Origin: the human T2T-CHM13v2.0 reference genome, Homo sapiens
NCBI RefSeq assembly: GCF_009914755.1
Contig: NC_060947.1
Direction: 5' to 3' (one strand)
DNA: 64,000 bases
The notes beneath the pieces were generated by a model, which was not told the origin of the DNA, did not search any database, and saw only the letters and a program-made list of their open reading frames with translations. Positions within the stretch are counted from its first letter, which is position 1; every line of letters starts with the position of its first letter. Positions 6,801 to 31,378 of this stretch are shown piece after piece. The position numbers and the translations under genes are program-made.

Positions 6801-8819
6801 AGCTGTTTCAAAGGTCTACCTTTGTGTTTCATCATTTTCATCATTAGAAAAAAAGACAGAGAAATTCAAAAAGTTCAGTGCCAGTAAGGAATTGTGGAAA
6901 GGCAAAGTAAGGCTTTTTCAGGAATTTCTAGAAAGAGGACTCACAAGTGCGAAGGAATATAATAAGAAAGCCATGAAGAGAACCACTAATGGGTACTTTG
7001 ATTCCATGTGAAACCAAAGTGAAGCTCTCACATCCAAAAAAACAAACAAAAAAAATGTCACCAAGTTAAGTAAATTCAAGCAGAGGAGATCATAACAATG
7101 TCAAAATTATCATTTTAATTAGTCTTAACAGTCAAAGAGAGTTAAGTAGTTTGCACTAGAGGTGAGGTAGGGAAGAAAGGGACAGTAATATCCGAATTCT
7201 GGGTAAGAGAAAAGTTGTTTTACTCAAGCTCTGCAGGAGGGAAATTGTCACAGTAAGCATTAATTGAGGTTAGTGAGAAGGGTACCAACTTGCTAATTTT
7301 CTGAAATCAAGAATCTTGTTCTGCAGCTTCATTTACTGTCCTCTTTATTGTTTACACTTAGCTGTTTTAATAAAGCTACATCATATTTTCCTCTATAGTG
7401 CACAGTGATGTGAATAAACCATGAAATAATATGTTAAATGTACATAATAAATGCAAGTGACACTTATCAAGGGAAAATTAAAAACCAAGTTTATTATAAA
7501 ATGGAACTGAGAAACTACTCTTAGAGTTGGGGTTCAGAGGACATCACCATGATGCTGGAGCTGACTTCAGGACAGTGAGGGCTCAACTGACAGAGCCCAG
7601 AGTTCATGAAAACTTTCTGGGTTTCAAGTCTCTTTACTGACAGCCAAGGAGCTTAACAATTTTTGCTCAGCAGGTACCTTTCATTTCCTGCGTCAAGCTG
7701 CAAAATCCCAGAAGAGAAAAGGTAGAGACATTTGCTGCAGGAGAAGGTAAATGAATGAACATCCAGGATTTAGTCCTACAAGCCATACTTTCATTCCCCT
7801 CTACTCTTGGAGGCAGGGAAAAGGCTCAGTCCTCAGAACTACTGCCTCTTGTTTCAGAAGAACACTGCAAAGCTCTGGATGTGTGGGTGGGTGGGGAGCA
7901 TTAAGCATATCTCTCAGTATCCTACACGTGCTTGAGGGAAACAAGGGGTAAGAATCCCTGTCCTCAGGGGCCAATATTTCCTTTACAGGCTCTTTAAAGC
8001 AAGAGGCTTAAACAATAAATGCCTATAATGCTTTGGAAGATGAAAATCTCTGAAGTGCTACTGACCAGGCTGAAGATTCTGATCTTACTCAATAATGCAT
8101 TACACTTCCCTTTTAAATTACTGATTCAGCCTTGGTTGGGTTGTATACAGTTTATTAACTCTCTCAAGTTTTGATCACACTTGGTTAATGAAAGCTGGAT
8201 GAATTGAATATTCTATTTCCTTATAATTGTGGATAATGTCCTCATATATTCTTATTTCCCTTCTGGGTATGGCATACCCAGTTTAGCATAATGCTGTAAC
8301 TTCTTGTTAAAGAGACAAAGCCATCACTAATTTTTTTTTTTTTTGGCATATAGTTAAAAGTGACTCAGAAATTTAGATTTTTTCCCTTTGGGAATTTAAC
8401 AGTGGGAAGATAAGGTTGGTTTTGTTCTGGATCTCCTTCTCCAAGGCCAAGTCACAAAAGCTAACTGGACAAATAAAATCTAAGTGTCCAAAAAAGTGCA
8501 GTAAGTAAATGTGAGATCAAACTGCATTTGTATATGGGAGCAACTGCAACAATTGTGTCTACATAAAATCTATATACTTACTGCTTCACACAGCAAATAT
8601 GCCCCTGAATGGTTGTGATTCAAGCATATGTTTAACAATCAGATCAGACAGGAGTTTGACTAGATGAACTTTAAGCTAAAATGAACAAGTGTTTCCTAAA
8701 TCCAAGGTAGAATAATGAACACGATCTAATAATTAAGCGTGTGGGGCTGTGACTGGGGCAGGGTGAAGCCCGAGACACAATTGTGCATTCCCCAAAGTCT
8801 TACTACAGAAGACTATAAG

Positions 8820-8975
8820 CAAATATTCAGAGAAAATAAATGAAAAATATAGCAAAATATTAACAGTGATTATCTCTGAGTGGTGGGGTACTAGATGATT
8901 TTTATTTACTTTTTAGAAGCTTTCTTGATTTTCCACATTCTCTGAAATTAGCATGCATTCCTTTATTTTATTACA
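8820..8975 (+). mobile_element. Old L1M (L1ME/MC-type) 3'UTR fragment
   Basis: aaatattaacagtgattatctctgagtggtggg...gatttttattt motif. Confidence 0.55.
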
Positions 8976-9109
8976 TTGAATTTTAGTTTAAGTAGAGGAA
9001 TGCTGAGAGAACTGACTATTAATAGTGAATACCTTGGCAAAGCATCTGGTAAAACAAATAACCACCATCTGCATATTTGTTTTGGTAATTGAGTCTCTCA
9101 TTTACCAGT

Positions 9110-9235
9110 TTTGCTTAAAGGTAGTCTCATCCATGTGGTTTTGTTCACTGTAGAATCCTCAGTGGTTAGCACAATGTTAAACACATAGCACATAGGGAGC
9201 AGGTATCAGTTTACGTTTTAAAGAAATAAATGAAT
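9110..9235 (+). mobile_element. L2 3' end
   Basis: ttttgttcactgtagaatcctcagtggttagcacaatg...aataaatgaat. Confidence 0.6.
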
Positions 9236-10310
9236 TTTAAAATTTGGAAAACATTAATTGAGTCTCTCTGCTTATAAATATGATTTGCAAATTTTATGGA
9301 TTTGTGAAAATCAAGCCCTTTTATCGCCCTGCAGGAACAGACATCAAAGCCAGCACATAATGAAACATAATGGAGGATGGATCACCTCCATTACTGAGTT
9401 GGCGAAGGGTCCTTCCCTGTTAGGTAGGGGTGTCTGACTAATTGGTAGTTAATAGCAAGAGTGTCACTGCTTTTGAGTTTATCATCAACTCTTAATTCTC
9501 TGTAGTGTTAGATGGGAACAATGACGCAGCGAATTCCCAAATCATTTGTTTGGTTTGGAAAAGAGGTATGATTTTTCCCCAGAAGGTTTGCCTCCTAATT
9601 CTTTTTCTTTTGGACAGTGCCTTTCTTGGGAGTGTTGCCTACCTGGATGATGGGGAAGGTAACCAGAAATAGACTGGGGCAGCGGGAAGCCAGCCTGGGA
9701 TTAAAATGTATCATCCTTTAGCCTTAGTGCTGAATGTAAAGTTCACTGGTGCCATTTGAGAGGGATAGTACCTTTTCTTTGTACAACACTTCAGATCTGT
9801 GGAGCCTGTGGGAGAAGTGAGTGCTTTTTTTTTTTTTTTTTTTTTGAGGCTTTTTTTCTGTCTTTGCTTTTTCTTTTAAAAAATCTCAGGAAGAAAGTTC
9901 AATGGTGTTGGAGGGATTATAGCCAACTTGCCTTAGATTAGGAGGATTTCTTCCCTTTTCCTCAAATATTTTTTTTCTCCTCTTGGATGTGGAGAGGAAT
10001 AAAGTCCATTGATTTTAGTAAAGTTGAAGGTATCTCCTCTTACAATGGAAGATTTTTTTCTTTAAAAATCTCCAGGGGAAAAGATTCATTGCTTTTGGTG
10101 GAGGTGGGGGAGCATCTCTCTTTAGGTCTGGAGGATTTCCATTAAAAAATAGGTTTTGTGGAGAGGACCTACAAGGGCAACTTGTTTTAATGAAGCTGGG
10201 GAGCCCTCCCTAGTAGGATTTTTCTTTCTTTCCTTTTCTTTAAAAGAAACAGTTTATTGGGAAAAATTAGAATGGGAGACATCTCTCCTGGAAAGATTTT
10301 CTTTTCCTTT

Positions 10311-10349
<39 letters not shown>

Positions 10350-10599
10350 GAAACAGTGAAGGCTGAAAGATACATAAGGTCCCTGGGATAGGGTGAGATT
10401 GGGTACATACCCACCACCCCCCCCACACGCACATTCCCCACCTTGAAGAAGCTTGAGAAAGAGATTTTGTGTGTGTGTGGTTTTTTTTTCCTTATTGTGG
10501 GGGATGGAGAGGGTAGTCATCAGGAATAATACGCAATGTCTGCAGTAAGGTGTTGGTGCATTTTCCTGGAGAGAATTTCTTTCTTTGATCCTTTAAAAA

Positions 10600-11120
10600 A
10601 TAATCCCTTTGTTAATTTTCTTCTTCCTCTTTCCCACCCCTCCTTCTCTGCCACCTTCACTCTATCCTACCTAGTCCTTTTCCCCTTCCCTTCACATTTC
10701 TCCCCCCATCCTCCTTCCTCTCTCCCTCTCCTTTCCTCCGTCTCCCCTTTCTTTTTCCCTCTCCTCCCTTCTCTCCCCCTCTTTCTTTTTCCCTCTCCAC
10801 CTCTCCCCTTTGTCTCTCTCTCTGGCTCCCTCCCTTCCTCTGTCTCTCTCCCTCTTTTTTCCTCTCCCTATCTCAGTCTCTCCCTACCTGCTCCTACCTT
10901 CCTCTCCTCTCTACCTGTCCGGCTTTCCCCCTCCCTCCCTTCTCCCCTCCTCCCTCTCTTCCTCTCTCTGTTTCTCTCCCTCCTTCTCCCTTCTCTTCCT
11001 TCTTTCTCCCTCTCTCCTTCTCCCCTCCTCCCTCCCTTCCTCTCTCTGTTTCTCTCTCTCCTTCTCCCTTCTCTTCCTTCTTTCTCCCTCTCTCCTTCTC
11101 TTTGTTTCTTTTTTGTTTTC
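10600..11120. repeat. Polypyrimidine/polypurine tract containing a 78-bp tandem duplication
   Basis: About 500 nt of nearly pure C/T on +; a 78-bp unit is repeated at ~10938-11100 (26-aa repeat in the ORF track). Confidence 0.9.
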
Positions 11121-11388
11121 AGAAAAATATTCAAGGACTTTGGTGAGTTTGGGGGCATCTTCATTCCTTAAGAAAAATATTTCTCTTTAAAATATACTGT
11201 TCATGTTCTTCCCTTCCCGCCCCCCATAATTCTAAATGTATTTGCTTGTTTTGAGAAAAAAAGGGGCTTTGTTGAGGCTGAGAATACTTTTGTTTAAGAG
11301 GACTTTCTTGGCTTTGTGTTTCTCCCCTACCTATCTTTTCTATTTGTTCTCAAATTACAAAAATTCTATATTAAGAATAAATCTTTTG

Positions 11389-11490
11389 GTAAATTATATA
11401 AATATATTAAATTATCACATGTTCCCTGAAAATATGTACATCTATTATGCATCAGTTAAAAATTAATTAAAAATAAATAAATAAAATAAA
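11389..11490 (+). mobile_element. Very short 5'-truncated L1 (L1PB/L1MA-type 3' end) inserted in an array unit
   Basis: aaattatcacatgttccctgaaaatatgtacatctattatgcatc plus A-rich tail; TSD aagaataaatcttttg (11373-11388) / aagaataaagtttttg (11491-11506). Confidence 0.7.
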
Positions 11491-12192
11491 AAGAATAAAG
11501 TTTTTGAGTGAATTTGAGTCAACTCCCATTAGAAGGATTTTCTTTCATTTTTTCTTCTTTTAAAAAAATCGGTTTTTTTTTTTTTGGTTGTGTTTTGACA
11601 GGAAAATTAATGGGTCTTTGTGACATTGAAGTACTTCTTCTCTTTAAGAGGATTCTGTTTTTGTTTCATTAGTAATATCCTCTTCACCAACACATATACC
11701 CTTCCATTCTTAATTTTATTTTAAATCTTAAAAAAAATTGTATTTTAAGAATAAGGTTTATGCTCTTTAGTCATGGAGGAGTGGTATTTCTTTTGTCCCT
11801 CCCTCCCGCACCCCCCGCGCCCCTGCTTCTTGGAATTAAAAATTCTGGAGATTTGGTATAGTCAGGGACCTATCCTTTAATATTTCTTTCTTTTTTTAAT
11901 TAAAATGTGTGTATCTAGAGGGGAGGATTCGTAAATTTCATTAACTTTTATGATTTTTGAGAATATCTGCCCTTAAAAAGATTTCCTTTTTTTGTTTGTT
12001 TTCCTTAATTTCTTTTTTTTTAATTGAAGGGGTGGCAAATAAAGGTTATTATCCTTGGCGAGGTTGAAGATCCTTTAAGAGGATCTCCCTTTCTTTTAGT
12101 TCCTTTTTTCAATTTTGTTTGTTTTTTGTTTTTGGGAGAATAATAGGTCTCTTATCTTGTGGTTAGAGGGATGGTATCTTTCTTTGAACTAT

Positions 12193-12440
12193 TTTTAAAA
12201 ATTGAGATGTAATTTACATACCATAAAATTCATCATCTTAACATACACAATTTTGTGGGTTTTATTGTATCCACAGTGTTGTGCACCCATCACCATTCTC
12301 TGATTTTAGAACATTTTAATCACCCTCAAAAGAAACCCTGTACTCTTTAGCCATCATCCCCTTTTCCACCTCCCATATTGCTTCCCTCATTTCCTTTCCA
12401 TCTCTAAGGATTTGCCTCCTCTGCACATTTTATGTAATCG
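12193..12440 (-). mobile_element. L1M (L1MB/MC-type) 3' end inserted in the array
   Basis: attgagatgtaatttacataccataaaattcatc...tttagaacattttaatcaccctcaaaagaaaccctgtac. Confidence 0.8.
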
Positions 12441-14593
12441 GGAAAATAATGTCAGGAAGCTTTGATGAGGTTGGGGGACCTTCCCTTTATTTTTGCCCCC
12501 TTAATTTTCTCAAGAGATTAAGCATGAGCCATGAAGTCAAATAAAGTTTACAAATTTCATGAATATTTTAAGGTTAGAAATACTGTTTAACTTAAGATGA
12601 TTTCTCTTTTTTCATCTTAAAATTTTTCTTTGGGGGATATAAGTTCCATGGGCTTTGATGAGGGTGAGGATAACTTCCTTTTAGAAGCTGTTTCTTTTTT
12701 TTTCTTAAAATAATTTTCAGAGGAGAGATAAATTTCATTATCTGGGGTCACTGTCCCTTTCTTTTCGTTTTTAAAATTCATAAATTTGTTTTTATTATTT
12801 TGAGAATGAGCTCTATTTGCTTTGGTGAGGGTGGGGCATCTCCCTTTAGAATGGCTGCTTGCTTGCTTTTTTTTTTTTCCTTTAAAATTATTTTTTTTCC
12901 ACTGAAAGAATTACAGTGGGTGGGCTTTGGAAAGGTCGGGCACCCTATCCTTAGCAGGATTTCAATTTATTTCCTTTACAAAACACACACGCACCAACAA
13001 AAAAGGTCTTTGTGAGTAATCGGTTCAGGGTCTCTGCCTCTTCTCGTTTCTTCTCTGGCTCCTCTTCTATGCTGGCCCCCTCTGGGAGCATCAGAAGTGG
13101 AGCAGCAACCACCGCTTTGGAAAAAAATTCAGAGCTGATGAAATGTCAGCTAAAAGACTGTTCTTAGACAAATGAGGATCCTATGTATCACAAAAGGCCA
13201 TATGTCAGATTTTTAAAAAAATCTACAATAGAAAATTCAATCATTACATCCTATAAGCTGTCAAGTTTTATTTTTGCCCTCCCCCACCTGCTGCCTTGTT
13301 CAAGGAAATAAAAGGGTTAATAATGCAGAGGCAAGCACTCTGTAAACTGTAAAGTGCCACAGGAGCAGAAGGAACTATATAATCCTTATTAGAATACCCC
13401 TGAATGGTTTCCTGGTTTCTATGGATATTTTTTTCTTTTTCTTTTTTCTTTTTTTTTTTTTTTTTTTTTTTGCCTTTCCTTGGAGGCACTTTCCCTTTGG
13501 GCTGCAGATCTGCAGAAGCCCTAGTCGGAGATTTTAATAAGTGCATAAGAATTGTACTCTGAGAAACTAAAGACCACTGACCAATACTTCATTATCTTTT
13601 CTAGAACACCCTGTAGTGACTGCTTAGGAACTATTAGAATACACCAAATAAATCAGATGGTATCATCAAAGCTTGGCAAGGAGGGGGGAAAAACTGAAGA
13701 GAAAAGAAAGTAATTTCATTCTGACCTTCAACAGGTTAAACATCTGAATCTATAATCCCAAATCTGTTTACAGTCACTGCAGATACTCTGTTCACTTAGG
13801 AAAAAAATTTATTATCCCCTGAAGCTAACAATATCATTATTAGTCTGCTGCTGCTGGGACTGCATGGGATAAGGACACTTTCCAAGCCATTAATAAAAAT
13901 TGTTAGTAATTTGCTTCTTAATTATAGTTCCAATAACCACTCTGAAAATGGAAAGATTGACTGTATTTCCTTAAGGGCTATATATTCCATGCCATTTAAA
14001 TAAGTATTTACTTCTCACTCTGAAACCAATGAGAACAAATTTTTATTCATTCACAGCAGCAGCCTCTACATTGCTGGAAATGGATAGTTTTCAAGCTTCA
14101 GCAAGTGTTTATTAAGCAAAATCAAGGAGGGCTGCATTGAACTAGGCACTGAGAAAGGCCACCCCTATTTTTGAGAAGCTCAGAAATCACTAATAAAATA
14201 TTGATAGGAATCACCAGATATCATATAAACAAATGCTTGCTATTTTGCAAGAAAATGTACAAAAATATCAGTTTTGTGCATAAAAGCTGTCCTGATATGG
14301 TTTGAGGATAATGGTTATTACTGTGCAGTCATCAGGAGGGATACACAGACCCCTTTTATCTCCCCCAAAAGCCATGAAAGTGTATCTCCCCTCAGATTTT
14401 CATCAATCATTTGTATGATGTGATTTTCATTTCATAGCTGGTCAAAACCCAATGAATAAACAAAATTTTGTCTTTCTTCAAGCACAGCTGATGAGAGAGA
14501 AAGAAACATGGTCTACTTCATATAAGCCCCATCCCTCCCCCAAGAGAGTTATAGCATTGCTAAAGAACCAATTCACACATCCTTACTTACACT

Positions 14594-14615
14594 TGCTGCC
14601 ACCAGGTGGGAGACC
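14594..14615. promoter_or_regulatory. Candidate CTCF site
   Basis: Plus strand TGCCACCAGGTGGGAG and minus strand CCCACCTGGTGGCAGCA are each one mismatch from CCASYAGRKGGCRS. Confidence 0.5.
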
Positions 14616-29677: not shown

Positions 29678-31378
29678 AAGTACTAAGTGGGATAAGAGGC
29701 TAAGAGTATCAACAATCAATATATAAACTTCTGAATGTCCTTGTTTTCCATATGGTACTTCTTCCTCAACTGTGCTTCCGCAGTCCAGAGACCCTCTGTT
29801 TTACTCTCTCTAGAGAATAAACCTCACATCTGATGGGAGTTGGGGCAGAGACAATCACACAACCGTGAGGAGTTGTGGGGGAGATCTTAGGATCCAACTG
29901 GTTAATAAGAATTTCAACCAATACTCTTGTTTTTAGACTTACTTTCACCTCCACTTCCAGAAGTACTGGTACTGCCAATTTTTGAGCCTTTTGGAGGTTC
30001 TTTATTGTGAATTGTGTTGGTTGTCAATTTTCCCCAATGCCAGTTTTGGATTCAGTTTCTGCAGGTCGGCTGTCAGTTACCCTTGTATGTCTATTTTCTA
30101 GCTTTAAATATTGCATTGTTGTCTTCTCTCCCCAAATTACTGTCATTTTAATGAGGGTTGGCAGCGAAGTGGAGGTAAATACACGTGTTCAAATTGTCAT
30201 GGTCAATGAGATGTCCTAATTTACATGTTAAAAAGATTACTGTGACCTTTTTGTGAAGAAGACTATGAGGGAGGGATAACAGTGGAAGTTGGGAGAACAG
30301 TTAGGTAGCTAGTTCTAACAGAAGAAATAGATAGCACTTGGTAGTAGATTGAGAGTGGGGAGAAGAGAGAGGGAGGTGTCACCAATGTCTCCTAAGCTTG
30401 TGTAGTAGGATGGATGGTGGATTTCACCCATTTTGTGATTCATTGTTTTCATGTCATTTTCCAGGACAGCTATCAACACACTTGTCTCCCTCACTACTAC
30501 AATTGGTGTCACCACAAAACCAGCTCAGAGCAAATCTAACATTGCCAGGAACACAGTTACCATGATAAGAAAGCCCTAATGTAATGACCACCACCAACAA
30601 CTACTACTACACCAGCTCCCAGTTATGAAGTGATCACTATAAGCCTGGTTCCATAATAAGCACTTTCCATATATTATTTTATTTAACTTCCCCAATAGCC
30701 CTGTGAGGTAGATACCCATCTGTAGTTTATTATCATTGAATTCCCCAAGTGAATTCTTTCTAAATCAATCAAATTCTGGGGAGTATAGTTTCAAAACAAA
30801 TTATGACAGGGGCTCTAGAAGTAGTAAGAGGGCACATCGCATTAGCTGTTGCCATTCCTACTCATTTGCTGTCTACTCCACACCTGTGGTAGGATGCATC
30901 TACTCTTTGCTCATACTGCCTGTCCCTCTGGTTAACCACTTCCTCCTATTCTTGCCTCAGAATTTTGCTTCTTCTGAAAATCCTCTCTTATAGTTGTATT
31001 ATTGCCCAAAGTGGCAAGAATGTCCCCTTTGCCTCAACTGTAGCATGGAACTACAGCCTTATTCTACTCCACAAGCTCTTCATAGGAGAAATGGAGGCTT
31101 GGAGTGGAGATGAGAACTTTGCCCAATCTTCAAATTTATGTGGAATTTCAGGAATAAAACGCATAAGGATGGAAATGTCTTGAATTGTTCACATGAACGT
31201 AGCCTAGAAGAGGGCAAAAAAGCGGAACAGGAAGAAGTAATTTTAATGCAATTTGAGACTTTCCCCAAGTTTCTTGAGAAATGGAAGAGTTGGGGGGACT
31301 GGGAACAGACGGTACAAATTACATTAACTTATTATGAATTACTTGGAGTTTTTACCCCTAGGAGAAATCCTGGAAGGA

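What the first reader, a model, noticed from the sequence alone, without database searches (positions are those of the whole stretch)
9735..12965. Ancient ~23-unit core-plus-T-linker tandem array in DGKK intron 1
Seen: a shared ~55-bp core (approx GGAGAATAAAGTTCATGGGCTTTGGTGAGGTTGGGGGCATCTCCCTTTAGGAGGATTT) recurs near 9737, 9890, 9997, 10075, 10160, 10245, 10370, 10523, 11121, 11255, 11491, 11600, 11748, 11835, 11920, 12037, 12134, 12441, 12540, 12633, 12721, 12801 and 12907. All copies have the same orientation and are separated by variable T-rich linkers often ending TTTAAAAA. The units are likely too diverged for a standard tandem-repeat call and match no interspersed repeat I recognise. 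Inference: a locus-specific repeat whose cores persisted while linkers drifted. This is reminiscent of the stem-plus-U-spacer design of XIST repeat A or the local repeats of FIRRE, suggesting a possible multivalent DNA or RNA protein-binding platform 5-8 kb from the DGKK promoter. This is my best candidate for an undescribed system here.
Basis: partly seen in the sequence, partly recalled or inferred. Interest (0 to 1): 0.8.

Follow-up and report, generated by a model that had tools for sequence, protein, structure and literature searches.

The report
Decayed tandem repeat in DGKK intron

Summary
Window 9735-12965 carries a same-strand, head-to-tail array of highly diverged units of about 80-150 bp.

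- **Unit support.** 15 of 23 claimed units pass a leave-one-out profile test at E<=0.1, against 0 of 69 shuffled units. 22 of 23 beat random window segments at p<=0.022.
- **Missed by standard tools.** TRF does not call the array.
- **Locus-specific.** In the T2T human genome, BLAST-level searches and a core-motif scan find the unit nowhere else. The one exception is a 26-nt chance-level match on chr5.
- **Later insertions.** The span also holds a 520-bp CT-rich block and two 3'-end fragments of interspersed retroposons.
- **Duplication history.** Units two steps apart are the most alike (0 of 5000 permutations), which points to amplification in steps of about 180 bp.
- **Decay.** Core identity averages 45% pairwise. 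Even the best pairs are 65-69% identical, so the array stopped homogenising long ago.
- **No RNA structure.** Neither strand has a consensus structure, and 16 unit folds give z between -1.6 and +1.7. The XIST repeat-A analogy therefore fails.
- **No retained motif.** No short motif survives in most units, and column conservation is only mildly uneven.

Best reading: a neutral relic of an ancient minisatellite-like array. A regulatory platform is not excluded, because cross-species conservation and binding data could not be examined here. Interest is low.

The parts
9735..12977 (+). Whole decayed tandem array. It holds about 21-23 units of 80-150 bp, all in one orientation, and is interrupted by three later insertions or expansions.
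9737..9790 (+). Unit u9737 (weak).
   Evidence: Leave-one-out E 8.9. Empirical p 0.0068.
9885..9956 (+). Unit u9890.
   Evidence: Leave-one-out E 0.061. p<0.001. 69% identical to u10075.
9994..10065 (+). Unit u9997.
   Evidence: Leave-one-out E 1.4e-6.
10075..10145 (+). Unit u10075.
   Evidence: Leave-one-out E 1.4e-4.
10166..10245 (+). Unit u10160.
   Evidence: Leave-one-out E 6e-6.
10245..10316 (+). Unit u10245. Its core is shortened, and a 30-T run follows at 10317-10346.
   Evidence: Leave-one-out E 0.034. p 0.0004. T run.
10368..10414 (+). Unit u10370 (doubtful).
   Evidence: Leave-one-out E 1.3. Empirical p 0.16.
10521..10596 (+). Unit u10523.
   Evidence: Leave-one-out E 0.074. p 0.010.
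10597..11110 (+). CT-rich polypyrimidine block, not units. It is probably an expanded linker.
   Evidence: TRF rows covering 10699-11101. About 70-73% matches to simple CT-rich tracts on many chromosomes.
11117..11190 (+). Unit u11121.
   Evidence: Leave-one-out E 4.9e-5.
11250..11321 (+). Unit u11255.
   Evidence: Leave-one-out E 0.0039.
11390..11490 (+). Inserted 3'-end fragment of an interspersed retroposon with an A-rich tail. It is flanked by an imperfect 17-bp direct repeat (11373-11389 and 11491-11507, 14 of 17 matching), read as a target-site duplication of the start of unit u11491.
   Evidence: 40 scored genomic copies at 78-94% identity. Other copies share 1.4 kb upstream and end at the A tail. 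The direct repeat was read.
11485..11556 (+). Unit u11491.
   Evidence: Leave-one-out E 0.015.
11594..11665 (+). Unit u11600.
   Evidence: Leave-one-out E 0.045.
11743..11793 (+). Unit u11748.
   Evidence: Leave-one-out E 0.2. p 0.0014.
11831..11903 (+). Unit u11835.
   Evidence: Leave-one-out E 1.4. p 0.0004.
11932..11999 (+). Unit u11920.
   Evidence: Not in the training set of model R1, yet E 0.014. p<0.001.
12033..12096 (+). Unit u12037.
   Evidence: Leave-one-out E 0.0068.
12134..12194 (+). Unit u12134 (weak by profile).
   Evidence: No leave-one-out hit, but p<0.001 in the pairwise-based test.
12195..12440 (-). Inserted fragment of an older interspersed repeat. Its T-rich (reverse A) tail is at the left end, and it sits in a linker.
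   Evidence: Dispersed copies at 70-82% identity. Copy-to-copy homology starts right after a T-rich run.
12440..12510 (+). Unit u12441.
   Evidence: Leave-one-out E 1.9e-5.
12540..12600 (+). Unit u12540 (weak).
   Evidence: Leave-one-out E 87. p 0.0007.
12633..12703 (+). Unit u12633, the best-preserved unit.
   Evidence: Leave-one-out E 5.2e-10.
12721..12777 (+). Unit u12721 (marginal; core truncated).
   Evidence: Leave-one-out E 3.8. p 0.022.
12798..12877 (+). Unit u12801.
   Evidence: Leave-one-out E 2.6e-5.
12907..12977 (+). Unit u12907.
   Evidence: Leave-one-out E 0.037.
12997..13066 (+).
   Evidence: p 0.022 against all random segments and 0.058 against T-rich ones. No profile hit.

Best explanation
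This is the neutral relic of an ancient, locus-specific, minisatellite-like tandem array.

**Proposed history.**
1. An ancestral unit of about 90 bp was amplified locally by unequal exchange or replication slippage. The unit was a mixed-sequence core of about 55-60 bp followed by a T/CT-rich linker ending in TTTAAAA. The last rounds of amplification moved in steps of two units (about 170-190 bp).
2. Homogenisation then stopped, and the copies have drifted apart by substitution ever since.
3. The low-complexity linkers changed length by slippage. One may have grown into the 520-bp CT block.
4. At least two retroposon 3' fragments landed at linker or core-start A/T sites.

On this reading the array does nothing specific today. 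It is simply transcribed, in antisense orientation relative to its T-rich strand, as part of DGKK intron 1.

**Shown:** the array, its strand and order, its uniqueness in the human genome at the sensitivity reached, the insertions, the lag-2 similarity, and the absence of RNA structure.

**Inferred:** neutrality, the age, and the mechanism of amplification.
For: **Real homology among units.** 15 of 23 units pass leave-one-out at E<=0.1, against 0 of 69 shuffled units. 22 of 23 reach p<=0.022 against random window segments.

**Deep, general decay.**
- Over the 65 core columns, mean pairwise identity is 44.7% (random expectation 27%) and identity to the majority consensus is 60%.
- The best pairs reach only 65-69%.
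- No sub-motif is kept in most units. AATAAA or ATTAAA at the core start survives in 5 of 23 (read). GGTGAG occurs 4 times in the span. The 18-nt degenerate core motif fits 3 units.

**Conservation is only mildly uneven.** Column variance is 0.025, against 0.017-0.018 +/- 0.003-0.004 in uniform-rate simulations realigned the same way. The simulation maxima were 0.024-0.032.

**Duplication history.** Lag-2 neighbours have mean Z 4.24, against a permutation mean of 2.55 +/- 0.48, reached by 0 of 5000 permutations. Four of the five most similar pairs are lag 2.

**Later insertions inside the array.** These came with no sign of array repair.

**No consensus RNA structure on either strand**, and no Rfam family.

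**Not part of a larger element.** The flanks are unique sequence, so the array is not the inside of a recognisable transposon. No other genomic copy was found.
Against: - Neutrality is inferred, not measured. No orthologous sequence, population data, chromatin data or RNA data could be examined.
- Column conservation is somewhat more uneven than the simulations. The block CTTTGGTGAGGTTGGGG holds most of the columns at 70-88%, which a retained binding motif would also produce.
- Twenty-odd units have stayed in order and recognisable at about 40% divergence from their consensus. That is a long survival for neutral DNA.
- The array sits in a first intron a few kb from a promoter, a place where regulatory elements are common.
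- In some searches only 40 of 3366 and 40 of 722 first-look candidates were scored, and BLAST cannot see copies below about 65-70% identity. Uniqueness is therefore shown only at that sensitivity.
Confidence: 0.7

Rival explanations
1. The array is a functional multivalent platform. Repeated cores would bind a protein many times over, either on DNA (as an intronic enhancer or silencer of DGKK) or on RNA.
For: - There is strict same-strand order of about 20 units.
- The best-kept columns cluster in CTTTGGTGAGGTTGGGG. CTTTG occurs 16 times in the array, while its complement CAAAG occurs 0 times.
- Column conservation is about 2-2.5 SD more uneven than uniform-rate simulations.
- The array lies in intron 1, 5.3-8.5 kb from the transcription start (hub table).
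- Functional intronic 'fuzzy tandem repeats' carrying transcription-factor sites are in print (PMC3386156; I saw only the search listing).
Against: - No motif is intact in most units. The 18-nt degenerate core fits only 3 units.
- There is no conserved RNA structure on either strand.
- The T-rich 'spacer' strand is antisense to DGKK.
- Insertions of 100-520 bp were tolerated inside the array.
- Strand asymmetry of CTTTG follows from common descent of the units and needs no selection.
Confidence: 0.12
2. The array is a remnant of a known or uncatalogued ancient repeat family, such as an old satellite or the internal tandem-repeat region of an extinct transposon, with this copy the only one still recognisable.
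For: - Repeat libraries (Dfam, Repbase) could not be searched here.
- Copies diverged below about 65% identity would escape the genome searches.
- In some searches only 40 candidates each were scored.
Against: - There are no matches to the units anywhere else in the 3.1-Gb assembly.
- The core motif occurs 3 times in the array and once elsewhere, with 0 hits for the reversed control. The one outside hit matches only 26 nt.
- Both flanks are unique sequence with no shared element.
Confidence: 0.13
3. There is no true repeat. The apparent units are an effect of T-rich composition and of the eye finding patterns.
For: - TRF calls nothing.
- Pairwise identities are low.
- A few claimed units are weak: u10370, u12721, u9737 and u12540.
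Against: - 0 of 69 composition-preserving shuffled units pass at E<=0.1, against 15 of 23 real units.
- No profile hit below E 0.09 occurs in the other 60 kb on either strand.
- All hits are on one strand and in register.
Confidence: 0.02

Closest known systems
Decayed minisatellite-type tandem repeats (old intronic tandem arrays that standard callers miss)
   Same: - Head-to-tail units of tens to about 150 bp in one orientation at a single locus.
- Stepwise multi-unit duplication.
- Length-unstable low-complexity parts.
- Below TRF's threshold.
- The ULTRA paper (PMC11580682; passages read) speaks of 'highly decayed' tandem repeats and of TRF first seeking well-conserved candidates.
   Different: - It is unusually far gone, at 45% mean pairwise core identity, yet still about 20 units long.
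- Copy-number polymorphism, the usual hallmark of a live minisatellite, could not be checked.
XIST repeat A (description recalled: GC-rich stem-forming cores separated by U-rich spacers in a lncRNA)
   Same: There is a formal layout of a mixed-sequence core plus a T-rich spacer, repeated many times on the X chromosome.
   Different: - No conserved or unusually stable stem.
- No Rfam match and no sequence match elsewhere on X.
- The U-rich reading would need a + strand transcript, which is not in the gene table. DGKK pre-mRNA carries the A-rich complement.
FIRRE local repeats and other X-linked tandem repeats bound by CTCF, such as DXZ4 and ICCE (recalled from memory; no paper on them was read here)
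   Same: A locus-specific tandem repeat on the X.
   Different: - Those arrays are recalled as well preserved, with larger units and a retained protein-binding motif.
- Here the units are short and decayed, and no motif is kept in most copies.
- No sequence similarity to any other X locus was found. CTCF binding is not testable here.
Intronic 'fuzzy tandem repeats' carrying p53 response elements (PMC3386156; only the search listing and the start of the abstract were seen)
   Same: An imperfect tandem repeat inside an intron that could multiply a weak binding site.
   Different: No recognised response element was identified here, and none is retained across units.

Membership tests
Tandem repeat array (minisatellite size class) | Three or more homologous units, head to tail, in the same orientation. 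| tested here: met
   15-22 of 23 units supported depending on the test, all on the + strand and in order.
Tandem repeat array (minisatellite size class) | Copy-number polymorphism in the population (VNTR behaviour). | not testable with these tools
   Only one haploid assembly is held.
Interspersed repeat or satellite family | Homologous copies at other genomic loci. | tested here: not met
   no other copy at BLAST or motif sensitivity. Repeat libraries were not available, and only 40 candidates each were scored.
XIST repeat-A-like RNA module | A conserved stem-forming core. | tested here: not met
   RNAalifold gives 0 pairs on both strands. 16 unit folds have z from -1.61 to +1.69.
XIST repeat-A-like RNA module | U-rich spacers in the transcribed strand of a known RNA. 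| tested here: not met
   The T-rich strand is + (41% T). The only annotated gene, DGKK, is on the - strand (hub table). RNA-seq data are not available.
XIST repeat-A-like RNA module | Multivalent protein binding (for XIST, SPEN and others; recalled). | not testable with these tools
   No CLIP data were available.
FIRRE/DXZ4-type X-linked repeat | A retained protein-binding motif in most units, or sequence similarity to those arrays. | tested here: not met
   The 18-nt core motif fits 3 units only. No X-linked match to the units. CTCF occupancy is not testable.
Transposon-internal tandem repeat | Array flanked by the body or termini of an element that recurs elsewhere. | tested here: not met
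   The flanks 9000-9735 and 12966-14600 are unique except for T runs. The only nearby interspersed repeat is at 8814-8966.

The most novel reading that the evidence does not exclude
The array is a eutherian-old, locus-specific intronic platform that is kept because many weak copies of the core block (CTTTGGTGAGGTTGGGG-like) together recruit a DNA-binding factor. That factor would tune DGKK transcription from intron 1. The array would then be a degenerate but selected 'fuzzy' repeat enhancer or silencer in a gene tied to hypospadias risk and fragile-X biology.
Probability: 0.07. Interest if true: 0.6.

Novelty: new member of a known kind. Interest (0 to 1): 0.2.

Why it matters
As read here it matters little. 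It is one more decayed tandem repeat that standard callers miss, and it is mainly useful as a worked case showing that such arrays can be recovered with leave-one-out profiles and shuffled controls.

It would matter if cross-species data showed the cores under constraint. [quoted passage not shown] A repeated element in intron 1 would then be a candidate regulatory site. Nothing seen here places any risk SNP in the array.

Tried and rejected
- **TRF and plain self-BLAST.** These are too insensitive.
- **Whole-genome search with the sequence-only covariance model R1.** I used the offered DNA and pattern modes instead.
- **chr5 hit to the core motif.** It matches only model positions 16-41, so I read it as chance; roughly 0.7 hits are expected for an 18-mer with three two-fold positions in 6.2 Gb.
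- **Extra unit at 9545-9610.** It was suggested by weak profile hits but is not supported (p 0.36).
- **Poly(A)-site or 5' splice-site reading of the core on the + strand.** I considered this because the consensus reads AATAAA, then a GT-rich stretch, with GGTGAG inside. I rejected it as a maintained function: AATAAA or ATTAAA at the core start survives in 5 of 23 units (read), and GGTGAG occurs 4 times.
- **A persistent A/B alternation along the whole array.** Same-parity versus different-parity similarity shows no difference (2.47 against 2.59, permutation p 0.66). Only local lag-2 similarity holds.
- **A roughly 5-unit higher-order period marked by C-rich linker pieces.** C-rich runs are not enriched. 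There are 3 in the array; by my arithmetic (41 runs in the other 60 kb of the + strand, and about 2.7 kb of array outside the CT block) about 1.8 would be expected.
- **Naming the two inserted repeats by protein domains.** 15 ORFs next to six other genomic copies gave no relevant Pfam family. 'LINE/L1 3' end' therefore rests on the A-rich tails, the 1.4-kb shared upstream body and recall.
- **Literature.** No paper linking DGKK intron 1 to a repeat was found.
  - The 12 papers listed in each do not mention DGKK at all.
  - Of the 11 papers holding both 'DGKK' and 'tandem repeat', I judged 10 from titles and abstract starts only.
  - In the one I opened (PMC8789076, passages), the tandem repeats are the SNORD116 genes and the DGKK site is in exon 8.

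Full report
**What is there.** I read window 9500-13300. To the eye it shows a recurring stretch of the form GAATAAAGTTCATGGGCTTTGGTGAGGTTGGGGGCATCTCCCTTTAGGAGGATTT. A T/CT-rich run that often ends in TTTAAAA follows it, always on the + strand.

Standard tools do not call it. TRF at minimum score 30 lists 26 rows between 8000 and 15000. These are T runs, a CT-rich block (10699-11101) and AT-rich microrepeats, and none has the unit period. A sensitive self-BLAST of the region against the window finds just two unit-to-unit alignments: 9868-9950 with 10055-10139 (69% over 87 columns) and 12602-12717 with 12762-12894 (65% over 136 columns).

**Is it more than chance?**
- An nhmmer profile built from six units found five further units inside the region and one weak hit outside (29799-29846, E 0.15).
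- Iterated to convergence, it holds 11 cores. All are on the + strand and between 9889 and 12949, and nothing else in the 64 kb on either strand has E<=0.1.
  - 15 of 23 reach E<=0.1 for a search of the whole window, 17 of 23 reach E<=1 and 21 of 23 reach E<=10.
  - u12134 has no hit and u12540 has E 87.
  - The best hits outside the array in those 23 searches had E 0.049-1.3.
- When each unit was shuffled in place, keeping its composition and most dinucleotides, the same procedure gave 0 of 69 at E<=0.1, 1 of 69 at E<=1 and 2 of 69 at E<=10.
- A second, profile-free test compared each 80-nt core segment with 17 reference units (self excluded), against 2813 random 80-mers from the rest of the window.
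  - 17 of 23 units have p<0.001.
  - Four have p 0.001-0.01 (u11748, u9737, u12037, u10523).
  - u12721 has p 0.022 and u10370 is not significant (p 0.16).
- The sequence-only covariance model R1, built from 17 units, also picks up the untrained unit at 11932-11999 (E 0.014). Its best hit outside the array has E 0.093.

The linker description holds too. TTAAAA occurs 18 times in the span (5.6 per kb against 0.94 per kb in the rest of the window). TTTTTT occurs at 27 per kb against 2.0 per kb.

**What else lies inside the span.** Whole-genome searches of the T2T assembly that holds the window were possible with DNA and patterns.
- The full 3231-bp span matched other loci only in three places: its CT-rich block (query 882-1386), a stretch at query 2446-2716 (window about 12180-12450, 70-82% identity to many chromosomes), and once in a T run. 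Only 40 of 3366 first-look candidates were scored.
- Window 11110-12190 matched elsewhere only at window about 11375-11507, at 78-94% identity, with 40 of 722 candidates scored.
- Window 9735-10590 matched elsewhere only in a T run, with all 10 candidates scored.
- Window 12600-12900 matched only itself.

I fetched six other copies of the two dispersed elements.
- Copies of the first share 1.4 kb of upstream sequence and end in an A-rich tail.
- Copies of the second begin to be alike right after a T-rich run, which is an A tail in reverse.

Both therefore look like 5'-truncated 3' ends of non-LTR retroposons. I recall them as L1-type 3' ends, but that name is not tested: 15 neighbouring ORFs gave no relevant Pfam family.

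The first fragment (about 11390-11490) is flanked by AAGAATAAATCTTTTGG (11373-11389) and AAGAATAAAGTTTTTGA (11491-11507). These match at 14 of 17 positions (read). I take this as a target-site duplication of the start of unit u11491, so the unit was there before the insertion. The second fragment (about 12195-12440) sits in a linker between u12134 and u12441.

**Is the unit found anywhere else?**
- At BLAST sensitivity it is not.
- A degenerate 18-nt motif taken from the best-kept block occurs four times in the 3.1-Gb genome. Three are in this array and one is on chr5; the reversed control pattern gave 0.
- The chr5 site matches the unit model over only 26 nt, which is what chance gives for such a pattern.
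- The flanks are unique. Window 8200-9890 matches elsewhere only at an old interspersed repeat (8814-8966) and a T run. Window 12900-14600 matches elsewhere only at a T run.

The array is therefore not the interior of a recognisable transposon.

There are limits to this. Repeat libraries (Dfam, Repbase) were not available. Copies below about 65-70% identity would be missed.

**How old and how decayed.**
- In the 17-unit alignment, the 65 core columns show 44.7% mean pairwise identity (range 29-62%; random expectation 27%) and 60% identity to the majority consensus.
- Even the closest pairs are only 65-69% identical.
- With a neutral rate of about 2e-9 per site per year (recalled), the closest pairs would have separated on the order of 100 million years ago, and the array as a whole earlier. 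This is inference from one genome only.
- Units two steps apart are the most alike. Mean Z is 4.24 against a permutation mean of 2.55 +/- 0.48, reached by 0 of 5000 permutations, and four of the five most similar pairs are lag 2.
- Lags 1 and 3-8 are not significant, and whole-array parity shows no difference.
- This fits a last phase of amplification in two-unit steps of about 170-190 bp, not a fixed A/B alternation.

**Tests of the functional reading.**
- RNA structure:
  - RNAalifold predicts no pair on the + strand alignment or on its reverse complement, the DGKK sense strand.
  - Eight units folded on each strand give z-scores between -1.61 and +1.69 against dinucleotide shuffles.
  - Rfam gives one sub-threshold chance match only.
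- Motif retention:
  - The best-kept columns (70-94%) are the AA of AATAAA and much of CTTTGGTGAGGTTGGGG.
  - No short motif is intact in most units.
  - The variance of column conservation (0.025) is about 2-2.5 SD above uniform-rate simulations passed through the same aligner (0.017-0.018 +/- 0.003-0.004). The simulation maxima were 0.024-0.032.
  - Shared ancestry among units and A/T-biased mutation would also raise that variance.
- The linkers are T and CT runs. Such runs are known to change length by slippage, so their poor alignment needs no special explanation.
- The T-rich 'spacer' strand is antisense to DGKK, the only gene annotated here.

Cross-species constraint, chromatin, protein binding and transcription could not be examined. 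This is the main gap.

**Literature.**
- I found no paper that describes a repeat in DGKK intron 1.
- Of the 11 papers holding both 'DGKK' and 'tandem repeat', I opened one (PMC8789076, passages). Its tandem repeats are the SNORD116 genes, and its DGKK site is in exon 8. The other ten were judged from titles and abstract starts.
[quoted passage not shown] Nothing ties them to the array.
- The ULTRA paper (PMC11580682, passages) gives context on decayed tandem repeats and on the way TRF works.

**Verdict.** It is best explained as a locus-specific, long-dead tandem array decaying neutrally in intron 1 (confidence about 0.7). The rivals are:
- a regulatory or RNA platform (0.12);
- a remnant of an uncatalogued or library-known repeat family (0.13);
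- a composition artefact (0.02), which the controls refute.

The kind is known, and this member seems undescribed in the papers searched. Interest is low unless conservation data show the cores to be constrained.

Noticed in passing
window 10597-11110: A polypyrimidine (CT-rich) block of about 520 bp on the + strand, which is purine-rich in DGKK pre-mRNA. It sits between two units. It is 70-73% similar to CT-rich tracts on many chromosomes, including the ends of X and Y. It may have grown from a linker, and long mirror-like pyrimidine tracts can form triplex DNA (recalled).
   Followed up: partly
window 11373-11507: A short retroposon 3' fragment with an A-rich tail, flanked by a 14-of-17 direct repeat. 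The insertion site is the AAGAATAAA start of a unit. The second insertion (12195-12440) also abuts a TTTTTAAAAA site. Both are A/T sites of the kind L1 endonuclease prefers (recalled).
   Followed up: partly
L002 1500-1525 (G000 C5:135021014-135021031 and flanks): The only other genomic match to the 18-nt core motif. It agrees with the unit consensus over 26 nt and not beyond, so I read it as chance.
   Followed up: yes
window 10424-10432 and 12986-12994: CACACGCAC occurs only twice in the 64 kb, both times in the array just after a unit core. C-rich pieces follow some units (10408-10432, 11211-11228, 11797-11826), but such runs are not enriched over the rest of the window.
   Followed up: partly
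window 8814-8966: An old interspersed repeat with 70-90% identity to copies on many chromosomes, about 800 bp upstream of the array. Its family was not determined.
   Followed up: no
window 9825-9845, 10317-10346, 13428-13471: Pure or near-pure T runs of 21, 30 and 44 bases on the + strand, in and just beyond the array.
   Followed up: no
window 10425-10500 (-): A sub-threshold Rfam match to a Caenorhabditis C/D-box snoRNA family (23.3 bits against a gathering score of 48, E 0.13). I read it as chance.
   Followed up: no
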